From the sequence record OL631481.1: a DNA stretch of 64,000 nucleotides. One strand, given 5' to 3'. This document shows positions 2,884 through 11,137 of the stretch, piece by piece. How positions within the stretch are numbered: the stretch's first letter is position 1; every line of letters starts with the position of its first letter. This stretch comes from Escherichia phage ECML-183-2. The notes under the pieces were generated by a model. It saw only the letters and a program-made list of their open reading frames with translations, had not been told where the DNA came from and searched no databases. The translations under genes and the position numbers were made by a program.

Positions 2884-2917
2884 TCTTATTGATTTATAAA
2901 GAGTTTTTTATAAAAGA

Positions 2918-2945
2918 AAGGAGCCAAATGGCTCCTTTTCTTATT
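2918..2945. terminator. bidirectional intrinsic terminator between convergent genes
   Basis: Hairpin AAGGAGCC-AAAT-GGCTCCTT flanked by T-runs on both strands. Confidence 0.6.
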
Positions 2946-5613
2946 TATAACCGGAAGGAATGTTGTTATAATCAGAAAGTTTTGTGCAATACCTGAATAG
3001 GTAACTATTAGCTACTCCGCCTAATGTATTTGTTAATGTTGTTCCTGTTCCTGTAAGATTTGTGCATCCACTAAAGAAAGAAGATAATGCTCCACGTTTA
3101 CCACAAACAGTTAACCCTGGGTTGTCATTAAAGATCTTATTAAAATCTGTAAGTCCTAAACAACCTTGGAATGTAGCTGTTAAAGAGGTCACTTTCGTTG
3201 GAATATTATCAAACATTCCTGCTGGAACTTCTGCAAGAGAGGTGCAATCTTTAAAGGTGTAAGAATATCTTGTAACTTTTGATAAATTTTTAAATAAATC
3301 AGAAGGAATAGATGTTAAAGACGTACAACCTTCAAACGTGCTTGACATTGTTGTCATCGAAGGAAATAAAGTATCGCTGAATAATCCTTCAGGGATAGCT
3401 GTCAAACTTGTGCAGCCAGAGAAAATACCACTTATAGACGTTCCGGTGTAAGATGTGTTACTGAAACAATCAGAGGTTATTCGTCTTAAGTTAGCACAAC
3501 CTTTTAAGAATTGTGAGGCTGGGCTTGTAGAATAACTAATCCTGTTGCCGCCCCATAATTCTAAAAGACTTGGGTTTGCTTCCATAGACACTTCCACACT
3601 ATTAACTACTGAAGCACTTGCAAATTCAATAGCCAGTCTATATTCTCCTGCGGGATAACTATCCACTGTAGAGAAAGCTTTGTTTCTAAATATTACTTTA
3701 CTTGAAGGAACTACAACGTCATCCACCTTAACTACAAAGTTAGCTGGTGTAACAGTACCCGATAAAGTTGGGAACGTAATCGCCCCATCTGCCGAGTGGT
3801 TGAAATATCCGTTTAGAACCGTTAAACTACTACTCGGAGATGGAGCTAACTCCTTTCCCGCAACAGCGTTCACCGTTAAATAAGAACTATCAGAAGCGGT
3901 AACAACACCTTGATATGTAGCTGTGCAACCAATTCTACAACCACCATCACCAACACCAGTTATTACACCAGTTGTAGGATCTACTGTAGCAACATTAGGA
4001 TCTGTAGTTGTATACTCAACAACCATACCAGGTAAGCTTGCTGCTCCTGTTGGCGTTATTTCTGCTACCATTGTTTGTGTTGTTCCTACATCCATCGCAG
4101 ATAAGCTAGGAGTGTAAACACTTAATGTTGAAGCATATCCTCCAGAGGTATCTGATAAAGTTGTTCCTTCAGCGTTTAAGGCTGTCATACCCGCATCAAA
4201 ACCACCTTCTGCATGGAAAGTCATTACACCAGTAGACGATATTGTCATGTTTGCAGGGGCAGAAGAAGTGTATTTAATATTGAAAAGTTTACCTCCTTCT
4301 GGGCTAACAGAATGTGTCAACTGTTTAGTTCCACCTACAATACAAATTCCTAAAGAATCTGTAGTTAAGCCTGTTGCCAGAATATCGCCCGTAATCACGG
4401 AGCTTGCTATTGGTGTGAATTTATTATAATTTAGACCACTATTGAATAGATACGAGGCTTTCCCATCTTTCCAAATACCGGAATAATACATATCTCCATT
4501 ATAAACGAAAAAGGTTCCTTGATAACCTAATTGGTTAGTAATATCCATATTCAGCGTATGAACGCTTGTGAGCTTGTTTATATCCCAGGAACCCACTCCT
4601 TCAGGTTTAACTGGTTTTCCCACTTGGAGTGGATCTCCGCTCGCAGAATCATACCCCAAACCTAAGTTTGCAGTGTAGTTCTTACCAATAGCCCACAAGG
4701 AATTATTGATCCCAACGAAAAAAGAGTGGCGGCTTGGTGGAAATTTCCATGTTGAAAAACCTGCTGCAAAGGTGTCCAGTTTAGTGTAGGTTGTTTCTGT
4801 ATTAGATCTAACATATAAGTAGTTTACTGTACCCGCGCCACCGGAGGTATCTCCTACAATTATTGTCTGGGAAACTGTATTGATGTAATCTTTGACATAC
4901 ACTGTTTCAGTAGTGGATATCGTGGCATTGACAAAAGCGGTTGTTGTGTTATTATTACCTGCTAAACCTTTACTGGCTCCACAAACACGCAAGGTTCCCA
5001 CATTGTTGACATAAGAACATTGATTGTAGCCTGCATCAAAAGCAACTGCTGCACTTGTTATCTGACGAGGAGTAGAAACTTCGTTAGTAGTACTTGCACC
5101 TAAACTACCTACTGTGTTTTGACCTGATCCATAAAGAACACCACTATTCATTAACCAGAGAGTATTGTTATATCCTCCCTTAACCTCTTTAAGATTAGCT
5201 AAAGAGATAGTCCCTGTTATTACAGATGGAAAGCTGGTCCAAGTAGTTACACATGCATCCGTACCACCTGCTGCTATAGATCCTACCAACCCTGCTGTCA
5301 ATCCTGAATATTGCCATCCCCCACTGTTAGTTTTAATAACAAAACAACGATCTGCGGTAAACACATCCGCTACTACAGTAGAAGCTAAGTGGAAATTATT
5401 GAATCGTGCACTACGAGTTCCATCTGCAATCTCACCAAAGAGGTTTGCGCCTTGAGTAAACAATCTACCATCATTAAGCAAAATTGCTAAACTACTGTTA
5501 GAATTACCAGCGTTATCTGGGTAATCTAAAGTAATTACTTTTTTAACAATACCTGCTGGCAGAGGAACGACACCAGTGCTGGTCATAATAGTAAATATTG
5601 GAATTGGAAACAT
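2941..5613 (-). CDS. tail fibre / receptor-binding protein with RCC1-like repeats, Ig-like (Big_2-like) domain and BspA-type leucine-rich repeats
   Basis: 890 aa; N-terminal G-rich propeller-like repeats, central Ig-like region, C-terminal repeated CTSLTxIPxxLF units. Confidence 0.55.
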   Translation of the reverse strand: MFPIPIFTIMTSTGVVPLPAGIVKKVITLDYPDNAGNSNSSLAILLNDGRLFTQGANLFGEIADGTRSARFNNFHLASTVVADVFTADRCFVIKTNSGGWQYSGLTAGLVGSIAAGGTDACVTTWTSFPSVITGTISLANLKEVKGGYNNTLWLMNSGVLYGSGQNTVGSLGASTTNEVSTPRQITSAAVAFDAGYNQCSYVNNVGTLRVCGASKGLAGNNNTTTAFVNATISTTETVYVKDYINTVSQTIIVGDTSGGAGTVNYLYVRSNTETTYTKLDTFAAGFSTWKFPPSRHSFFVGINNSLWAIGKNYTANLGLGYDSASGDPLQVGKPVKPEGVGSWDINKLTSVHTLNMDITNQLGYQGTFFVYNGDMYYSGIWKDGKASYLFNSGLNYNKFTPIASSVITGDILATGLTTDSLGICIVGGTKQLTHSVSPEGGKLFNIKYTSSAPANMTISSTGVMTFHAEGGFDAGMTALNAEGTTLSDTSGGYASTLSVYTPSLSAMDVGTTQTMVAEITPTGAASLPGMVVEYTTTDPNVATVDPTTGVITGVGDGGCRIGCTATYQGVVTASDSSYLTVNAVAGKELAPSPSSSLTVLNGYFNHSADGAITFPTLSGTVTPANFVVKVDDVVVPSSKVIFRNKAFSTVDSYPAGEYRLAIEFASASVVNSVEVSMEANPSLLELWGGNRISYSTSPASQFLKGCANLRRITSDCFSNTSYTGTSISGIFSGCTSLTAIPEGLFSDTLFPSMTTMSSTFEGCTSLTSIPSDLFKNLSKVTRYSYTFKDCTSLAEVPAGMFDNIPTKVTSLTATFQGCLGLTDFNKIFNDNPGLTVCGKRGALSSFFSGCTNLTGTGTTLTNTLGGVANSYLFRYCTKLSDYNNIPSGYK

Positions 5614-5621
5614 TTAAACCC

Positions 5622-5651
5622 TCCATAAAAAGAAAGCCCCTTTCGGGGCTT
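5622..5651 (-). terminator. intrinsic terminator
   Basis: Hairpin AAGCCCC-TTTC-GGGGCTT with U-run on the minus-strand transcript, just downstream of gene 5655-7679. Confidence 0.5.
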
Positions 5652-5654
5652 CTG

Positions 5655-7679
5655 TTATCGTGTTACAACAACCATGTCCACGATATTACCCACACCAGGA
5701 TACGTTAATTGCAAAATTGTTACTGCGTTAGCAGTAGTTGCTATTTCTGTATCATTCAGTGCTCCATAAGACGCATCTAGTGTAACCGTGTGTCCCGTTG
5801 TATCTTGAATCAAATAAATCATTGCTGAAAATGCTTTAGGTTTTGTAGATCCAGTGACACCAGGCCATGCTCCAACTGTCAGAGCGTCAGTTACTGTAAC
5901 AACATACATATTGGAAGTTCCAGAAGGAGTCCAAGATGCTCCAGAGTTGGCAGTAGTTGTTTCAAGTTCCATGAAACCTGCTGTAACTCTAGTTGGTGTT
6001 ATAGCTTCTGTAGGATCTGATCCTGATATTTCGATCCAGTTCCCATCAGAACGACCATACGTCAAGCCGTCTTGAGGTGCTTCTGGTATACTAGGAAGAG
6101 TTCCTATAAGTGTCCATGTAGAAGAATCTGTTTTCTTAAACACTGCTCCAGTGGTAGTATTGAAAGCGTAATCATTGATAACACCATCACCTGCGACTGG
6201 ATTAGTTGTTGCTACAAACCACTGTGCGCCGTCCTTACCGTTGGTTCCATCAGTACCGTTGGTTCCGTTTGTTCCAGGATCACCCTTATCTCCTTTATCC
6301 CCTTTTTCACCTTTGTCGCCTTTAATACTTCCCATGTCAACAAAAGATGCTGAATTGGTGTCTTGATCGTAGGTATAGATGTAAAGATTACTAGTGTCTT
6401 CAGTTAAGTAAGCATCACCGTAGTTATTATAAACAGGGAGAGCTTCGCCGTTTGCAACATGACCTTTAGCTGTAATAGATCTACCACCCAAACTACCTAC
6501 ATTGAGCCACGTTTGATTGTCGTCGATCCACACGTAAAGGTCATTTTTTACAATGTAGGCATCACCAACCTCCGCTACAGAAGGTAATTCTGAAACATCT
6601 GACAATTCACCATTTACAGAAAGACCTGCACCAACCGGACCTTGGATACCTTGAACACCCTGTTCACCTTGTGGACCAGGATCTCCCTTATCTCCTTTGT
6701 CACCCTTCTCTCCTTTTAAGGAAGCAACAAAATCTACTTCTGTCCCTTCATTACCAGCATCCAGCCAACTTTGATATGCAGATTTACCTTCATCTCCATC
6801 TGTTCCATCAAGACCGTCTTTACCTGCCTCACCTTGTGGACCTTGAGGACCAACAATATTACCCATGTTGACCCAAGCTGTCCCATTAGAGACATAAAGA
6901 TTACCATCGATAGAGTACGCTTGGCTTACGTTTTCAGAGTTAGGTTGTGGTAAGTTACTTGTAGAAGGCAAATCCCCACGATAATCAAAACCGTTGGCGT
7001 TAACACCAGGTGCTCCCTGTGGCCCTGTAGGACCAACATCACCTTTATCACCTTTTATAGAGGTAAGAAAGTCATAAACAGATCCTGTATTACCATCTGC
7101 CAACCATACCTCATAAGCTGATTTCCCTTCTGGCCCAAGAGAAGAAATAAGTTTCCAAACAGAACCATCCCAAGCGTAAATCACATCACCTACGATATAA
7201 CCATCTCCTGCAATGTTACCTGTAGATGGTAGTTCACTAGTGCTTGCTAATGATCCCTTAATATTAAGTTGAGCACCAGTATCTCCTTTCAAAGAAGCAA
7301 GCCACTGGGCTTCTGTTCCAACAAAACCATTATCAAGTGCGATCTGATAAGCCGATTTACCAGCTTCAGGTATTGCTTCTGACAAATCATCGATCTGTTG
7401 TTGCACTGCCGTAAACTTGGCATTGATAATTGCTATATCATCAGCGGTCCCAACACTTTGCCATGCAAGGGAAGAAATACCACCTGTGGTGGCTGGCGTA
7501 GAGTTTGCTGGAACTACTTTAGGAAAAGTTCCTTTCCATTGGTAATAATTCCCTTCTGCTGCTAACAGCAAAACTTCACGGGAATTACGTAATGTAAAAC
7601 CTGCCTCAAAGCTGCGACGTTTTCGATAAGTAGCTTCTACCAGATCGGCTATCGCACTATTAGGTCTTGTTAAATTCAT
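5655..7679 (-). CDS. collagen-like repeat tail fibre protein
   Basis: 674 aa with several Gly-X-Y runs (GDKGDKGDKGDPGPQGEQG, GEKGDKGDKGDPGTNGTNG). Confidence 0.6.
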   Translation of the reverse strand: MNLTRPNSAIADLVEATYRKRRSFEAGFTLRNSREVLLLAAEGNYYQWKGTFPKVVPANSTPATTGGISSLAWQSVGTADDIAIINAKFTAVQQQIDDLSEAIPEAGKSAYQIALDNGFVGTEAQWLASLKGDTGAQLNIKGSLASTSELPSTGNIAGDGYIVGDVIYAWDGSVWKLISSLGPEGKSAYEVWLADGNTGSVYDFLTSIKGDKGDVGPTGPQGAPGVNANGFDYRGDLPSTSNLPQPNSENVSQAYSIDGNLYVSNGTAWVNMGNIVGPQGPQGEAGKDGLDGTDGDEGKSAYQSWLDAGNEGTEVDFVASLKGEKGDKGDKGDPGPQGEQGVQGIQGPVGAGLSVNGELSDVSELPSVAEVGDAYIVKNDLYVWIDDNQTWLNVGSLGGRSITAKGHVANGEALPVYNNYGDAYLTEDTSNLYIYTYDQDTNSASFVDMGSIKGDKGEKGDKGDKGDPGTNGTNGTDGTNGKDGAQWFVATTNPVAGDGVINDYAFNTTTGAVFKKTDSSTWTLIGTLPSIPEAPQDGLTYGRSDGNWIEISGSDPTEAITPTRVTAGFMELETTTANSGASWTPSGTSNMYVVTVTDALTVGAWPGVTGSTKPKAFSAMIYLIQDTTGHTVTLDASYGALNDTEIATTANAVTILQLTYPGVGNIVDMVVVTR

Positions 7680-7744: not shown

Positions 7745-10700
7745 TTAGGTTGTTGGCACATCTACCACTGGTGTTGGGCGAATAACCGCAGTATTACCTA
7801 CAGAAACATTACTAGAATCGTTAGGTATGGTTTTGATTCTAACTCCAGCACTCGTAGGCGTTACAATCGGATCTGCAATGTCTATTTTAACTGGGTTAGT
7901 CCACGTATCATTATCTTGATAAGGTGCACGAGTAATAACTGTGTCCAAATCTGCTCCACCTACACCAGCACCAGGAATACGGATACGTGTTCCTGCTGAC
8001 AGAGGATAGTGATACAACCAAGAAGCGTTTGTTGCTGTCCCATTAGGAGTCAAGTTCTGTGTCAGGAAGGTATCTCCTGCTTGTGTAGCTCGAATACCGA
8101 AAGCTGGGATATCTGGAATGTATGCCCCACTTGTTGTTACAAGGAAGAACGTATTATCCGCTTTGACTATCATATCCCCTTTGTCAAACTCCTTCCCTGT
8201 TGGGAAATGCATCCCATCAATGTTTCGGCTAGGGTTAGGCTCTAAGTAATAAACTTTGCTAGTTGTCCCTACAATAGCTCCAATACCACCTGCGATATTG
8301 GTATACATATTAGCTTCAACATTACAGTTGACACGATGAATATCCGAGTAACGGCAACGGCTCCACTGTGGACGACCAGTAACCATCGTCTTGCCATCTG
8401 GGTAACAGTTTACGTTAACCATCTCAAGAACAGATTTTTCTCTACGGAAGAATCCATCATAAAATGTCCCTGGACCAGATTCAGGTTGACCAACACAATC
8501 AAAGATATTACAGGTGATGTTAGACATTGAAAGCCAAGAAGCTACACCGAACAACTGCAACGCAGCACAACGGATATTCTCAAAGCTGACTCTGTTTTCA
8601 TAACCTGGCCCAGCGGAAACTCCTGCAAAAACACGCCCAGTTTTGGTGTGAATGTTACGAACAGAATAGTTAAAGCATGGGTTTGAAGGTCTGCCCTGTG
8701 CCGGAACTACCGGATTACCCTCTTCGTCCAGAACTGCGTTAGTTCCCCACTCCAAATAAATCATACGGATATTACTTGCAAGTGTGCTACCGTCTGTTTT
8801 AGGCTCTCCATAAACACCATCAATCGTAAAATCTTTACTTCCATACATTACAACTGCGCCAGTTGCCAAACCTGTTCCAACAGATACAGTTTGATCTGGA
8901 TCGCCATGAATGTTTTCGATAGAAATATTACGACCAACTTCTACGTGGACAATCTGACGACAACGTTTTGCAAAAACGTTACGAATTGTAATATTCTTGC
9001 AATATTGATCATCAGGAATTCCGTAACCATATGGTCCTTTACCAGCTACACCAATACCGATACCCCAGTTGGACAGAGGAATAGGAGCGTTAGTCCCATC
9101 GATATTAGACAGGTAAATATTCTCAATCACACAACCATCATCATAATGTTTATTGATGACGTTCAGTTCTATTGCATCACCTTGCATGTCCATGAAGGTA
9201 AGGTTACGGAAGACACCGCGTGTTACTGGTTCCCCTGTTCCTTGTTGAAGGATGCCATATAACCCGTTTTTAAAAGTACAGTTATCAATTTCAAAAGTAC
9301 CTGATATTGGGTTGCCTTGGAATACCAGGCTACCAACTTGACCTGCGCGAGGGGCACCGTCCCACAAACAATCGAACATGCGCACAGCACCACCCCAATA
9401 CATAACACGAGAGTTACGGAAAGTTGTGCCTTCTACTGTAGCATTTTGCACACGATAGTCGCGTTGACCACGGAACACACCCCCACGCAAAGTGATACCT
9501 TGAATATCAAAAGAGCTTGTCGTGAAAGTCATATCGCAACCGTAAGCATCGAGAATCTTGCTTTTCGAAGCTTTTGCTGCTAACAGTGCCGCTTGGAAAG
9601 CTGCTTCTGGTGTGGTATATGTTGTTGTGTTGTTAGCAAATTCTGACAAGTAGACAACATCGAATAAATCGTTGTATGTTCCACCACGAGGGGTTAACAG
9701 TCCTTCTGTATTGGTCAGAACCCATGCATTTGGACCTAATCCACCGCTTGTCTCCAATGTATCGGAGGCCAAAATACTTTTTGGTAAACTTCCAGCCCAA
9801 CGATAACGACCAGCACCACGTCCAATCGTCTGATTTTTAGCTGTCAGAGTTACGTTATTACCAAAGCTTGTAGGCAAATGAACAAACTGTCCACGTTCAA
9901 CAGCTAGTGCAGAAAGATCTACAGATCCCCCAGAATAAGTCATTACTCCAGAAACAGACAAAGATGTTAAAGTTCCTGTGATGTTAGGAGGTAATGTGTA
10001 GGAAGACTGTGCTACTGGATCATACAGAGCTTTAATCCCTGTTAACGATTGACCTGCTATTGCGTAAGCCACCTCATCATCTAACAAACCATATTTACGA
10101 GCAATAGTTTGCAGAGGGACTTTATCCATGCTTTCTGTTAGTTCTTCCGTTTTTGTTTCTAAACTAACAAGACGATTCTCTAGGTTAGGATCTGTATCTG
10201 CTGAAGCTACGATTTTACCAATATAAGCAAAAAGCTTGTTTGGCAGTCCTGTCGCAGGATCGTGTCCCAAAGGTTCAGATAAGATGATCTTACTATCTTC
10301 TATGCGGAAAGCTTCTCCCAGAACCTGAATAACACCATTGATCGTAACAATAGCACTATCAAAGATGTAGGGAGGACTGATTACTGTTTCATAACCAGTT
10401 GCACCAGAATATACCCAAGGGGTGACTTCTGTTGCCAATTGTTCTGTTTTCAGTCCCCACAATACCCAGTTGTTATCTCCTACTGGAGTCCCTTGCATAG
10501 GGATTGGGTTAACCAATGTAGCGTTAGGGGCGTAGTAATAACCGCTCAATACTCCATTCTGGAAATAACGAAGTTGGTTAAAAACTGTTTCGTTTGTGCC
10601 TTGCGCCCAATCTAATGGGCTTTTAAAGAAAAAGTTGTCAACAAGGGCTTTTCTCAGGGTTGGTATCAACCCTGATTCTGTTTCAATACTCTCTGTAGCA

Positions 10701-10798
10701 CTTCCATTAATAACATCATGGAGTTGGTTAGACGAGAAAATAACCAGATCTACGCCCTGTTCAAGAGACGTTGCTGGATATGTTGGGAATGTTGCCAT
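7745..10798 (-). CDS. tailspike-like protein, probable right-handed beta-helix (depolymerase-like) domain
   Basis: 1017 aa; long region of short repetitive beta-strand-like segments rich in N/G/I/V. Confidence 0.5.
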   Translation of the reverse strand: MATFPTYPATSLEQGVDLVIFSSNQLHDVINGSATESIETESGLIPTLRKALVDNFFFKSPLDWAQGTNETVFNQLRYFQNGVLSGYYYAPNATLVNPIPMQGTPVGDNNWVLWGLKTEQLATEVTPWVYSGATGYETVISPPYIFDSAIVTINGVIQVLGEAFRIEDSKIILSEPLGHDPATGLPNKLFAYIGKIVASADTDPNLENRLVSLETKTEELTESMDKVPLQTIARKYGLLDDEVAYAIAGQSLTGIKALYDPVAQSSYTLPPNITGTLTSLSVSGVMTYSGGSVDLSALAVERGQFVHLPTSFGNNVTLTAKNQTIGRGAGRYRWAGSLPKSILASDTLETSGGLGPNAWVLTNTEGLLTPRGGTYNDLFDVVYLSEFANNTTTYTTPEAAFQAALLAAKASKSKILDAYGCDMTFTTSSFDIQGITLRGGVFRGQRDYRVQNATVEGTTFRNSRVMYWGGAVRMFDCLWDGAPRAGQVGSLVFQGNPISGTFEIDNCTFKNGLYGILQQGTGEPVTRGVFRNLTFMDMQGDAIELNVINKHYDDGCVIENIYLSNIDGTNAPIPLSNWGIGIGVAGKGPYGYGIPDDQYCKNITIRNVFAKRCRQIVHVEVGRNISIENIHGDPDQTVSVGTGLATGAVVMYGSKDFTIDGVYGEPKTDGSTLASNIRMIYLEWGTNAVLDEEGNPVVPAQGRPSNPCFNYSVRNIHTKTGRVFAGVSAGPGYENRVSFENIRCAALQLFGVASWLSMSNITCNIFDCVGQPESGPGTFYDGFFRREKSVLEMVNVNCYPDGKTMVTGRPQWSRCRYSDIHRVNCNVEANMYTNIAGGIGAIVGTTSKVYYLEPNPSRNIDGMHFPTGKEFDKGDMIVKADNTFFLVTTSGAYIPDIPAFGIRATQAGDTFLTQNLTPNGTATNASWLYHYPLSAGTRIRIPGAGVGGADLDTVITRAPYQDNDTWTNPVKIDIADPIVTPTSAGVRIKTIPNDSSNVSVGNTAVIRPTPVVDVPTT

Positions 10799-10801
10799 TA
10801 A

Positions 10802-11137
10802 TTACCCCTTATTCTGTGTACGTTTAACTATGTCATCTAGCATCATTTGAATAGTCGCATTCTTGAGGTCCATAATCTTTTCAATTTTTTGCTCAAGAGT
10901 GTTATTATTTGCCATTAATGTAGAGTTAATTTGATTTAGCATCTGGGTAAGTTCGGCTTTAGTTGCATAAGTTGATTCAACAAAGACCAACTTCTTCTCT
11001 AGCTCTCGACTTTTCTCCTCCATTTCCTCAAGATCAGAGCCGAATTTATCCATTTTTTGTTTGAAAAAGAACCAGATGACTCCGATTAAAGGGATGATTG
11101 CATCCTTGGCAAGTCCCCATGCTTCTTGAAATTCCAT
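10802..11137 (-). CDS. small membrane-anchored coiled-coil protein
   Basis: N-terminal hydrophobic helix (IIPLIGVIWFFF) followed by charged heptad-like region. Confidence 0.45.
   Translation of the reverse strand: MEFQEAWGLAKDAIIPLIGVIWFFFKQKMDKFGSDLEEMEEKSRELEKKLVFVESTYATKAELTQMLNQINSTLMANNNTLEQKIEKIMDLKNATIQMMLDDIVKRTQNKG

What the first reader, a model, noticed from the sequence alone, without database searches (positions are those of the whole stretch)
2941..5613. Tail fibre combining RCC1-like repeats, an Ig-like domain and BspA-type leucine-rich repeats
The 890-aa protein has Gly-rich propeller-like repeats at the N-terminus, a central Ig-like segment, and a C-terminal array of about 24-aa units of the form CTSLTxIPxxLF, characteristic of BspA-type LRRs of bacterial surface adhesins. 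This is an unusual domain combination for a phage receptor-binding protein.
Basis: partly seen in the sequence, partly recalled or inferred. Interest (0 to 1): 0.5.

Follow-up and report, generated by a model that had tools for sequence, protein, structure and literature searches.

The report
Phage tail protein with swappable LRR tip
This is the last gene of the tail-fibre locus of a phAPEC8-like E. coli phage. It encodes a beads-on-a-string protein (RCC1-type propeller, two Ig domains, a small beta-sandwich, a BspA-type leucine-rich-repeat tip) whose tip is an exchangeable cassette, so it is a real but already sequenced and only moderately surprising candidate host-recognition module.

Summary
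An 890-aa ORF lies at 2941-5613, on the minus strand. It is the last gene of the tail-fibre locus of a Phapecoctavirus-like coliphage (97-98% nt identity to ESCO5, SF1-1 and tuntematon; phrog_11922 'tail protein'; 'TfpM1' in one paper).

All three domain calls are confirmed:
- **Propeller:** aa ~17-405 form a seven-bladed RCC1-like propeller (Foldseek to UVR8, E 3e-17, TM 0.70).
- **Ig domains:** aa ~410-585 are two Big_2 Ig domains.

Corrections: the repeat period is 26-32 aa, not 24. There are two Ig domains plus an extra beta-sandwich. The protein itself stays below the Pfam and NCBIfam thresholds, although its homologues pass them.

New findings:
- aa 585-890 are a cassette that alternates with an unrelated phAPEC8-type tip at a fixed junction (DSSYLxVNA).
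- The propeller is an optional insert behind a conserved N-terminal MxPIP peptide.
- The same LRR family sits in tail-fibre modules of other phages.

Receptor binding, virion location and oligomeric state are inferred, not shown. Interest is moderate.

The parts
2941..5613 (-). Complete CDS, 890 aa (stop codon 2941-2943). It is the last gene of the minus-strand tail-fibre locus and the orthologue of the ESCO5/tuntematon 'tail protein', called 'TfpM1' in one paper.
   Evidence: ORF list and translation. phrog_11922 matches over the full length, E=0, 1349 bits. 97-98% nt identity to 33 phage records over the full length. Naming is from PMC12695924.
5566..5613 (-). N-terminal peptide, aa 1-16 (MFPIPIFTIMTSTGVV), proposed as the virion-attachment element.
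   Evidence: The MxPIP start is conserved in this protein, Justusliebigvirus EmilieFrey bas61_0035, rV5 gp27, PVP-SE1 gp40 and metagenomic relatives, although what follows it differs. AF2 pLDDT is low here: 50 for aa 1-10 and 70 for aa 11-20. The function is inferred.
4399..5565 (-). RCC1-like seven-bladed beta-propeller, aa ~17-405.
   Evidence: Pfam RCC1 and WD40_RLD hits. Profile A2 against PDB sequences: HERC2 RLD 2.4e-15, RPGR, HERC1, UVR8, RCC2. AF2 model of aa 1-585 has pLDDT 89.3, with 28 strands in aa 7-401. Foldseek against PDB: UVR8 E 2.7e-17 and TM 0.70, then HERC1/2, RPGR, RCC2, RCC1.
3859..4386 (-). Two tandem Big_2 Ig-like domains, aa ~410-497 and ~498-585.
   Evidence: Pfam Big_2 46 bits in two stretches. 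AF2 shows beta-sandwiches. Foldseek hit to LigA Big domains. 65% identity to aa 16-188 of EmilieFrey bas61_0035.
3862..3891 (-). Cassette junction, aa 575-584 (DSSYLTVNAV), at the end of the second Ig domain.
   Evidence: Schickermooser gp247 is 97% identical up to aa 584 and unrelated afterwards. The short orthologues (PVP-SE1 and GAP31 type, 564-573 aa) end at ...DSSYLxVNA(P). N-terminal and C-terminal identities are decoupled across 20 homologues.
3511..3858 (-). Linker (aa 586-596) plus a small beta-sandwich domain (aa ~597-701); the first part of the exchangeable cassette.
   Evidence: AF2 model of aa 586-890 has pLDDT 90.6, with strands at aa 598-686. Weak Foldseek matches to N-terminal domains of CBA120 TSP4 and to other phage tail proteins. 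It always travels together with the LRR.
2944..3510 (-). BspA/TpLRR/DUF285-type leucine-rich-repeat solenoid, aa 702-890. Units start at aa 702, 731, 760, 787, 815 and 847, followed by the C-terminal cap FRYCTKLSDYNNIPSGYK (873-890). This is the putative ligand-binding tip.
   Evidence: - Motif and shuffle test.
- Sub-threshold hits: LRR_5 E 0.003, DUF285 E 0.02, TIGR02167 E 3e-5.
- Homologues show a perfect 27-aa repeat, FxxCTxLTSIPEGLFxNNxxVTxFxxx, and the same cap.
- 41/97 homologues hit LRR_5, 25 DUF285 and 15 LRR_8.
- Family profile against PDB: LRRs at E down to 5e-28.
2916..2939 (.). Bidirectional terminator-like hairpin immediately after the stop codon, where the tail operon meets the convergent plus-strand genes.
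   Evidence: Found on both strands by the scan. A terminator is annotated at the equivalent place in phage Schickermooser.
5633..5652 (-). Terminator-like hairpin between the upstream 674-aa collagen-like fibre gene and this gene.
   Evidence: Scan result. An equivalent terminator is annotated in Schickermooser.

Best explanation
The gene encodes a modular, adhesin-like tail protein of a Phapecoctavirus, built as beads on a string. The order is: a short conserved N-terminal peptide (MFPIP...), an RCC1-like seven-bladed propeller, two Big_2 Ig-like spacers, and a distal cassette (beta-sandwich plus a seven-unit BspA/TpLRR-type LRR solenoid with its own C-terminal cap).

The most likely mechanism is as follows. 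The N-terminal peptide fixes the protein to the baseplate or fibre network. The Ig domains hold the tip away from the virion. The LRR tip binds a host-surface ligand and so contributes to host range.

The tip is one of several interchangeable alleles that recombine at the conserved DSSYLxVNA junction at the end of the second Ig domain.

What is shown: domain identities, repeat anatomy, cassette exchange, decoupled phylogeny, and recurrence of the LRR family in other phage tail-fibre modules.

What is inferred: presence in the virion, N-terminal anchoring, monomeric state, and ligand binding by the LRR. The ligand is unknown.
For: **Locus.** This is the last gene of a run comprising tail-fibre-assembly protein, lipoprotein, colanidase-like spike (Tail_spike_N), collagen-like fibre (Tail_spike_N), then this gene.

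**Domains.** RCC1-like propeller; Big_2 x2; LRR.

**Cassette behaviour.**
- Schickermooser/phAPEC8 proteins are 97-99% identical up to aa 584, then unrelated.
- The LRR cassette is 90-97% identical on N-termini that are only 75-86% identical.
- Sequenced relatives split about evenly: about 35 records have the LRR allele and about 31 have the phAPEC8-type allele at >=95% identity.
- Further states exist: a second DUF285-type tip (Pfam E 1e-42) and no tip at all.

**Portability.**
- Ig-Ig-sandwich-LRR occurs without the propeller (P0002).
- In one contig the LRR cassette is fused to the Tail_spike_N anchor of the neighbouring fibre.
- The phAPEC8-type tip sits on a propeller-less Justusliebigvirus protein that starts with the same MYPIP peptide.

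**Independent phage contexts for the LRR family.**
- Klebsiella P2-like phage gp35 is Tail_P2_I + Big_2 + LRR_5/DUF285.
- In IMG/VR locus L013, checked here, a 308-aa LRR protein lies between a 1544-aa collagen-like tail fibre and a tail-fibre-assembly protein. L029 has the same ORF layout.
- Other metagenomic contigs show phage-like neighbourhoods.

**Phenotype correlation from the literature.** PhiWec190 carries the LRR allele, and phiWec188/190 need yhaH. PhiWec179/181/186 carry the phAPEC8-type allele and need flhD. All five need waaT.
Against: - No proteomic or structural evidence was found that this protein is in the virion. The rV5 proteomics text does not mention the positional homologue gp27. 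The phi92 cryo-EM study could not assign the corresponding fibres.
- None of the domains is a typical trimeric fibre element, so calling it a 'fibre' may be wrong.
- The protein itself fails the curated thresholds for LRR_5, DUF285, TIGR02167 and WD40_RLD.
- Foldseek gave only weak LRR matches: best E 9e-3, TM 0.25-0.30.
- The phiWec correlation is confounded. TfpL also differs between the two groups, and YhaH is an inner-membrane protein, so it is unlikely to be a direct ligand.
- Variability among 14 cassette alleles is not concentrated at recognisable LRR face positions.
Confidence: 0.65

Rival explanations
1. The protein is an accessory virion adhesin directed at something other than the infection receptor. 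The Ig and LRR domains would hold the phage on mucus, extracellular matrix or biofilm material in the gut (a Hoc-like, 'adherence to mucus' role), raising encounter rates without determining which strains can be infected.
For: - Big_2 Ig domains and BspA-type LRRs are typical of bacterial adhesins for host matrix proteins (established knowledge of BspA and internalins).
- Homologues of the LRR occur in giant surface proteins and in pilin-like proteins of gut bacteria.
- Orthologues in PVP-SE1 and GAP31 lack any tip yet keep the gene.
- One contig lacks most of the protein, which suggests it is dispensable.
Against: - The tip alternates with a cassette that is also carried by proteins annotated as lateral tail fibre proteins of Justusliebigvirus.
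- In at least one other phage locus checked here (L013), the LRR protein lies between a fibre and its assembly chaperone.
- The allele co-varies with bacterial host-factor requirements in the phiWec phages.
Confidence: 0.15
2. The LRR (or the propeller) is a protein-protein docking module inside the virion. It would bind another tail-fibre or spike protein and so help build a branched receptor-binding complex, rather than contacting the host.
For: - LRRs are classic protein-protein interaction scaffolds.
- The locus encodes two proteins with Tail_spike_N docking domains, as in the branched TSP complex of CBA120.
- The beta-sandwich in front of the LRR weakly resembles N-terminal domains of CBA120 TSP4.
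Against: - A docking module should be conserved. Instead this is the most exchangeable part of the protein, and it is replaced by an unrelated domain in near-identical phages whose neighbouring genes are otherwise the same.
- It is C-terminal, the end that is usually distal.
Confidence: 0.1
3. The protein is not a virion component at all. It would be a secreted or intracellular phage protein that merely lies next to the tail genes.
For: No direct evidence of virion incorporation was found. A terminator-like hairpin separates it from the upstream fibre gene.
Against: - Same strand and tight spacing as the tail-fibre genes.
- No signal peptide or transmembrane segment is evident in the N-terminus (read from the sequence).
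- The positional homologue is conserved across Stephanstirmvirinae and Vequintavirinae, always at the end of the fibre locus.
- PHROG category is 'tail'.
- The fusion to a Tail_spike_N anchor in L001.
Confidence: 0.05
4. The C-terminal repeats are not LRRs but a phage fibre fold (beta-helix or similar) that only resembles the LRR motif by chance.
For: The protein stays below all curated LRR thresholds, and Foldseek scores are weak.
Against: - Homologues at E 1e-40 pass LRR_5, DUF285 and LRR_8.
- The family profile hits solved LRRs at E down to 5e-28.
- The AF2 model has pLDDT 90.6.
Confidence: 0.02

Closest known systems
The 890/891-aa 'tail protein' of Phapecoctavirus and 'Wecvirus' phages: the ESCO5, tuntematon and phiWec190 proteins (LRR allele) and phAPEC8_00180, ESCO13 and Schickermooser gp247 (other allele); phrog_11922; provisionally 'TfpM1' in PMC12695924
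   Same: It is the same gene. Identity is 97-99% for the LRR allele, with the same position at the end of the fibre locus and the same N-terminal 584 aa in both alleles.
   Different: Nothing differs at the sequence level for the LRR-allele phages. The published descriptions found here give only length, phylogeny and 'C-terminal variation'. They contain no domain analysis and no mention of LRR or RCC1.
BspA / TpLRR-type LRR proteins (Pfam LRR_5 PF13306; solved examples BACOVA_04585 4FS7, 4GT6 and T. pallidum TpLRR 6MLX) and DUF285/PARCEL repeats (PF03382, TIGR02167)
   Different: The period is 26-32 aa (27 in regular homologues), not 23 as in TpLRR/LRR_5 or 25 as in canonical PARCEL (PMC2996958). 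There is an extra P-E-G-L-F-x-N-N loop, which gives profile similarity to the LPxGxFD motif of VLR and LRRTM-type LRRs. The array has its own conserved cap, C-x-x-x-S-[DN]-Y-x-x-I-P-x-x-[WY]-K. The protein itself scores below the curated thresholds. It is carried on a phage tail protein, not a bacterial surface protein.
Listeria internalins (LRR + Ig-like inter-repeat domain adhesins)
   Same: Both are monomeric adhesin designs in which an LRR solenoid is coupled to Ig-like domains. This suggests how the protein may work. The comparison is from established knowledge and was not tested here.
   Different: The order is reversed: here the LRR is C-terminal and distal. The LRR subclass differs. 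No sequence relationship was shown, and there is no cell-wall anchor.
Exchangeable receptor-binding tips of phage tail fibres, for example the distal tips and adhesins of T-even long tail fibres and the lateral tail fibre alleles described for Vequintavirinae in the BASEL study (PMC8594841)
   Same: The N-terminal part is conserved, the C-terminal specificity part is allelic, and recombination occurs at a conserved junction. [quoted passage not shown]
   Different: The tip is an LRR solenoid rather than a trimeric fibre tip. The whole protein lacks fibrous or trimerisation motifs. An RCC1-like propeller is inserted near the N-terminus.
Klebsiella phage ST16-OXA48phi5.4 gp35 (Peduoviridae): Tail_P2_I + Big_2 + LRR_5/DUF285, 1008 aa
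   Same: In both, a Big_2 domain followed by the same LRR family and cap sits at the distal end of a baseplate-peripheral protein of an enterobacterial phage. Identity is 33% over aa 705-889.
   Different: The anchor is the P2 gpI baseplate-wedge domain rather than an MxPIP peptide plus propeller. The LRR array is longer. It passes the Pfam LRR_5 and DUF285 thresholds.

Membership tests
Leucine-rich repeat superfamily (Pfam clan LRR) | Tandem units of 20-30 aa with a periodic hydrophobic / Asn-or-Cys ladder pattern | tested here: met
   Seven units of 26-32 aa, each with F-x-x-C-x-x-L. No shuffle out of 20,000 reaches the observed motif count.
Leucine-rich repeat superfamily (Pfam clan LRR) | Curved solenoid fold with one short beta-strand per repeat forming a parallel sheet | tested here: met
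BspA-type LRR (Pfam LRR_5, PF13306) | Score at or above Pfam's gathering threshold (27.7 bits) | tested here: not met
   17.7 bits, E 0.0033, for the isolated C-terminus, and no hit for the full protein at E<=0.01. However, 41 of 97 homologues match at E<=1e-3, best 2.5e-13.
BspA-type LRR (Pfam LRR_5, PF13306) | TpLRR-class consensus A-F-x-x-C-x-x-L-x-x-I with a period of about 23 aa | tested here: inconclusive
   The F-x-x-C-x-x-L-x-x-I core is present in units 731, 760 and 787 (V in place of I in 787). The period is 26-32 aa because of a longer loop. The closest solved LRRs by identity are 4FS7 and TpLRR.
DUF285 / PARCEL 25-26-residue repeat (PF03382, TIGR02167) | Score at or above the curated cutoffs (25 and 30 bits) and the canonical 25-residue W-D-T-S-x-V-T-x-M-x-x-M-F unit | tested here: not met
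   DUF285 15 bits; TIGR02167 23.7 bits. The units are 27 aa with Cys and the SIPEGLF segment, unlike the canonical PARCEL unit. Orthologues with a different tip (P0138, P0140) do pass DUF285, at 145 and 126 bits.
RCC1-like domain (seven-bladed propeller) | RCC1 repeat signature at or above threshold, and the whole-domain model | tested here: inconclusive
   PF00415 scores 24.1-27.7 bits against a cutoff of 21.7 (met). PF25390 scores 42-46 bits against a cutoff of 150 (not met). The profile of homologues hits HERC2, RPGR and UVR8 RLDs at E 2e-15 to 1e-9.
RCC1-like domain (seven-bladed propeller) | Seven four-stranded blades, with a fold superposable on RCC1, UVR8 or HERC RLDs | tested here: met
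   28 strands in aa 7-401. Foldseek to UVR8: E 2.7e-17, TM 0.70 over about 416 columns, followed by HERC1/2, RPGR, RCC2 and RCC1.
RCC1-like domain (seven-bladed propeller) | Guanine-nucleotide-exchange or other RCC1-type biochemical activity | not testable with these tools
   There is no basis to expect it in a phage tail protein; only the fold is claimed.
Big_2 bacterial Ig-like domain (PF02368) | Score at or above the gathering threshold (22.8 bits) | tested here: met
   32.7 bits in the full protein; 46.1 bits in two stretches in the isolated segment.
Phage tail fibre / receptor-binding protein | Encoded within the tail-fibre or baseplate module | tested here: met
   The neighbours are a collagen-like fibre, a colanidase-like spike, a tail-fibre-assembly protein and short-fibre-like proteins.
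Phage tail fibre / receptor-binding protein | Conserved proximal part and allelic, horizontally exchanged distal part | tested here: met
Phage tail fibre / receptor-binding protein | Physical presence in the virion | not tested
   No proteomic or cryo-EM assignment was found in the papers read.
Phage tail fibre / receptor-binding protein | Trimeric fibrous architecture | not testable with these tools
   Only monomer predictions could be run. The domain set (propeller, Ig, LRR) has no obvious trimerisation element, which argues against a classical fibre.
Phage tail fibre / receptor-binding protein | Binding to a host receptor that determines host range | not testable with these tools
   There is only an indirect and confounded correlation, in the phiWec phages.

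The most novel reading that the evidence does not exclude
The LRR cassette defines an unrecognised class of phage receptor-binding tip. It would be a monomeric LRR solenoid, unlike the trimeric fibre or spike tips, that recognises a host envelope ligand and is traded as a ready-made module among three kinds of carrier:
- tail proteins of unrelated phages (Phapecoctavirus; P2-like Klebsiella phages; uncultured phages in which it sits between a fibre and its chaperone);
- bacterial pilin-like adhesins;
- giant bacterial surface proteins.

In Phapecoctavirus and 'Wecvirus' the choice between the LRR tip and the phAPEC8-type tip would then set the second host requirement, observed as yhaH-dependent versus flagella-dependent infection.
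Probability: 0.25. Interest if true: 0.65.

Novelty: new variant of a known kind. Interest (0 to 1): 0.4.

Why it matters
Phapecoctaviruses are among the broadest-host-range coliphages used in therapy and biocontrol studies. In one study, AV125 and AV126 infected 84 and 65 of 198 ESBL/AmpC E. coli strains (PMC10844046). Their receptors and the roles of their many fibre genes are explicitly described as unknown there.

This analysis gives a precise and testable handle:
- a fixed junction at aa 584/585;
- two roughly equally common natural alleles, the LRR tip and the phAPEC8-type tip;
- natural isolates that differ in the allele and in host-factor dependence.

If the LRR tip binds a host ligand, it would add the LRR fold to the repertoire of phage receptor-binding domains. 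LRRs are an engineerable binding scaffold (repebodies, VLRs). It would also offer a compact monomeric module for host-range engineering.

If the tip does not bind a host ligand, the gene is simply one more well-conserved, poorly annotated tail accessory protein.

Tried and rejected
- **Plus-strand reading.** Translating 2941-5613 on the plus strand gives only stops; the gene is on the minus strand.
- **Curated family scans on the protein itself.** Pfam and NCBIfam give only sub-threshold LRR hits. The call had to be made through homologues, profiles and structure.
- **Variability mapping.** Per-column entropy over 14 cassette alleles shows no clear concentration on one face or register position (mean entropy 0.65 in the LRR, 0.78 in the sandwich). 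No inference was drawn.
- **Base composition.** The LRR part has 35.9% GC against 39-42% for the rest of the gene. The difference is too small to argue for recent foreign origin.
- **Scans of IMG/VR.** The family alignment had no usable conserved stretch. The window cassette itself found no close relative. Only a regular-repeat homologue (P0012) retrieved viral loci.
- **Literature.** No paper in the library describes an LRR-tipped phage receptor-binding protein or the domains of this protein. Hits were annotation tables or unrelated. The rV5 proteomics text does not mention gp27. The 2012 phi92 paper is not held. The 2026 phi92 structure leaves fibre II unassigned.
- **Other Pfam hits.** The PF23011 and PF23548 zinc-finger hits on homologues were judged spurious, caused by the periodic Cys.
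- **PARCEL membership.** Considered and not adopted: the unit length and consensus differ.


Full report
**What is there.**
The interval 2941-5613 holds one ATG-to-stop ORF of 890 aa on the minus strand; the plus-strand reading is full of stops. The window comes from a Phapecoctavirus-like E. coli myophage. The gene is 97-98% identical at the DNA level over its full length to 33 deposited phage records, including ESCO5, SF1-1, tuntematon, AV125 and AV126. It matches PHROG family 11922 ('tail protein') end to end (E=0).

The gene is the last of a minus-strand run. In order, that run encodes a tail-fibre-assembly protein, a small lipoprotein, a 1017-aa colanidase-like spike, a 674-aa collagen-like fibre and then this gene. 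Both the spike and the fibre carry the Tail_spike_N docking domain. A bidirectional terminator-like hairpin (2916-2939) follows the stop codon, and another (5633-5652) precedes the gene.

One paper provisionally calls the protein TfpM1 (890 or 891 aa). It records that the protein is absent as such from Justusliebigvirus and varies at its C-terminus, but gives no domain analysis.

**N-terminal half.**
Pfam finds RCC1 repeats just above threshold (24-28 bits against 21.7). The whole RCC1-like-domain model scores far below its cutoff (42-46 against 150). A profile of 38 homologues hits the RCC1-like domains of HERC2 (2.4e-15), RPGR, HERC1, UVR8 and RCC2 among solved structures.

An AlphaFold2 model of aa 1-585 has mean pLDDT 89.3 and contains 28 strands between aa 7 and 401, which is seven four-stranded blades. 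Foldseek places it on UVR8 (E 2.7e-17, TM 0.70), then HERC1/2, RPGR, RCC2 and RCC1. The propeller is followed by two Big_2 Ig-like domains at aa ~410-585 (46 bits).

**C-terminal part.**
Units start at aa 702, 731, 760, 787, 815 and 847, and a truncated unit at 873 serves as a cap. The spacings are 29, 29, 27, 28, 32 and 26 aa, not about 24. Seven F-x-x-C-x-x-L-type motifs lie in aa 696-890, against 0.35 expected by shuffling; none of 20,000 shuffles reaches seven.

On its own, the segment gets only sub-threshold hits, all within the LRR clan:
- LRR_5 (BspA type): E 0.003, 17.7 bits against a cutoff of 27.7.
- DUF285: E 0.02.
- TIGR02167: E 3e-5, 23.7 bits against a cutoff of 30.

The homologues settle the matter. 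A search with aa 596-890 returned 281 proteins. Many of them show a perfectly regular 27-residue repeat, F-x-x-C-T-x-L-T-S-I-P-E-G-L-F-x-N-N-x-x-V-T-x-F-x-x-x, and the same C-terminal cap. Of 97 homologues scanned, 41 match LRR_5, 25 DUF285 and 15 LRR_8. The family profile hits solved LRR proteins at E down to 5e-28. These include the BspA-like Bacteroides proteins 4FS7 and 4GT6 (about 1e-16) and T. pallidum TpLRR.

The repeat shares the F-x-x-C-x-x-L-x-x-I core of the TpLRR/BspA class but has a longer loop. It is not the canonical 25-residue PARCEL/DUF285 unit. 'BspA-type LRR' is thus a fair label for how the domain is built. Formal membership of the Pfam and NCBIfam models fails for this protein on score.

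**The tip is a cassette.**
Phage Schickermooser's orthologue (891 aa) is 97% identical through aa 584 and unrelated afterwards. Its tip has no LRR and no Pfam match.

Across 42 homologues, the N-terminal and C-terminal parts have decoupled histories. The LRR cassette is 90-97% identical on N-termini that are only 75-86% identical. N-termini that are 99% identical carry the other tip.

At least four states exist:
- this beta-sandwich + LRR cassette;
- the phAPEC8-type tip, which ends in GLKYYD;
- a second LRR-type tip that passes Pfam DUF285 at E 1e-42;
- no tip, as in the PVP-SE1 gp40 / GAP31-type proteins of about 565-610 aa, many of which end at the conserved DSSYLxVNA motif.

Among deposited phages the two main alleles are about equally common: about 35 records carry the LRR allele and about 31 the phAPEC8-type allele at >=95% identity.

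The module is also portable in other ways:
- P0002 is Ig-Ig-sandwich-LRR without a propeller, in a related phage contig.
- One assembled contig fuses the first 74 aa (Tail_spike_N) of the neighbouring fibre directly to aa ~567-890 of this protein, across a 25-nt overlap.

**The propeller is an insert behind a conserved N-terminal peptide.**
The positional orthologue in Justusliebigvirus EmilieFrey is 942 aa and annotated as a lateral tail fiber protein. It starts MYPIPLF and goes straight into the two Ig domains, which are 65% identical to aa 411-584 here. About 750 further residues follow, ending in the phAPEC8-type tip.

The MxPIP start is shared by this protein, rV5 gp27, PVP-SE1 gp40 and the metagenomic relatives. 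I infer that this short peptide, not the propeller, is the common attachment element, and that both propeller and tip are optional functional modules. This is inference; no structural data place any of these proteins in a virion.

**The LRR family elsewhere.**
An exhaustive phmmer search of 1.84 billion representatives finds 14,399 proteins at E<=1e-3 and 804 at E<=1e-30. They include giant proteins with up to 26 matched stretches. Some homologues begin with a prepilin-type N-terminal segment.

The family also recurs in phage tail contexts:
- Klebsiella P2-like phage ST16-OXA48phi5.4 gp35 is Tail_P2_I + Big_2 + LRR_5/DUF285.
- A narrow pattern search retrieved 29 IMG/VR viral contigs. In the one locus checked with PHROGs (L013), the 308-aa LRR protein lies between a 1544-aa collagen-like tail fibre and a tail-fibre-assembly protein. 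L029 has the same ORF layout.
- Other metagenomic contigs have phage-like neighbourhoods, with holin, lysozyme, a Collar domain and DUF4376.

So the repeats are LRRs, and they are also a recurrent though undescribed element of phage tail loci.

**How it probably works.**
The best-supported reading is a modular adhesin attached by its N-terminus to the baseplate or fibre network. The Ig domains act as spacers, and the LRR tip acts as an exchangeable ligand-binding module that contributes to host range. I give this about 0.65.

A lead from the literature fits this reading. PhiWec190 carries the LRR allele (91.8% identity), and phiWec188 and phiWec190 lose infectivity on a yhaH mutant. PhiWec179, 181 and 186 carry the phAPEC8-type allele (98% identity) and lose infectivity on an flhD mutant. 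All five need waaT. The correlation is confounded, because another fibre gene (TfpL) also differs between the two groups, and because YhaH is an inner-membrane protein.

The rivals are a non-receptor (mucus or matrix) adhesin (0.15), an intra-virion docking module (0.10), a non-virion protein (0.05) and a non-LRR fold (0.02).

**Novelty and verdict.**
The sequence is already in dozens of phage genomes and in a PHROG family, and LRR, DUF285 or BspA annotations exist for other phage ORFs. I found no paper that describes the LRR tip, the propeller insert or the cassette junction of this protein, or any characterised LRR-based phage receptor-binding protein.

I rate it a new variant of a known kind: a modular phage receptor-binding protein with an LRR tip and a non-fibrous architecture. 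Interest is about 0.4. It is well defined, directly testable and relevant to broad-host-range therapeutic phages, but it is not a surprise of principle.

Noticed in passing
L001:8001-9191 (Logan SRR10359460_34); corresponds to window 2941-7679: In this Phapecoctavirus contig the 674-aa fibre gene and this gene are replaced by a single 396-aa ORF. It joins aa 1-74 of the fibre (Tail_spike_N) to aa ~567-890 of this protein, and the two parental matches overlap by 25 nt. It could be a natural deletion or recombinant, or an assembly artefact.
   Followed up: partly
window 5566-5613 (-); L010:4093-4140; L007:4001-4050; L008:4001-4050: An N-terminal M-x-P-I-P motif is shared by this protein, Justusliebigvirus EmilieFrey bas61_0035, rV5 gp27 and PVP-SE1 gp40, although different domains follow it. 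It is a candidate common virion-attachment peptide.
   Followed up: partly
L010:4093-6921 (EmilieFrey bas61_0035): The phAPEC8-type alternative tip (91% identity) and the two Ig domains (65% identity) also occur on a 942-aa Justusliebigvirus lateral tail fibre protein that has no propeller. The statement that TfpM1 is absent from that genus is therefore only partly true.
   Followed up: partly
window 10802-11137 (-): A 111-aa predicted lipoprotein gene (phrog_15210) lies inside the tail-fibre locus, between the tail-fibre-assembly gene and the colanidase-like spike. Its role is unknown; a superinfection-exclusion-type function is conceivable.
   Followed up: no
window 7745-10798 (-): In this 1017-aa colanic-acid-degradation-like spike, the Tail_spike_N docking domain lies internally (aa 302-361), after about 200 aa that match tail-fibre PHROGs. 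This suggests a branched receptor-binding complex like that of CBA120.
   Followed up: no
window 42146-44132 (-): A cluster of 10 tRNA genes: Met x2, Ile, Pro, Gln, Gly, Thr, Asn, Ser and Arg.
   Followed up: no
phage records MG065650.1, OR584014.1, OP562383.1: Records named Campylobacter phage B15, Pseudomonas phage PsgM04F and Acinetobacter phage ABPW7 carry cassettes 91-99% identical to those of E. coli Phapecoctaviruses. Their host labels look doubtful or deserve checking.
   Followed up: no
L013:15-6050 (IMG/VR UViG_3300017743_000002); L029 has the same ORF layout: A 308-aa LRR protein of the same family lies between a 1544-aa collagen-like tail fibre and a 152-aa tail-fibre-assembly protein. 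The arrangement is reminiscent of a separate fibre-tip adhesin.
   Followed up: partly
L009:2523-5549 (Klebsiella phage ST16-OXA48phi5.4 gp35): The P2 gpI-type baseplate protein is extended to 1008 aa by a Big_2 domain and an LRR_5/DUF285 array that ends in the same cap as the window protein.
   Followed up: partly
proteins P0006-P0010: These homologues of the LRR tip, from gut metagenomes, begin with a prepilin-type N-terminal methylation/transmembrane segment. The same LRR + cap module therefore also appears to decorate pilin-like bacterial proteins.
   Followed up: no
alignment A3 members: Twenty-one homologues hit PF23011 (PHD finger) and eight hit PF23548 (zinc ribbon). These are most likely spurious matches caused by the periodic Cys of the repeats.
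   Followed up: no
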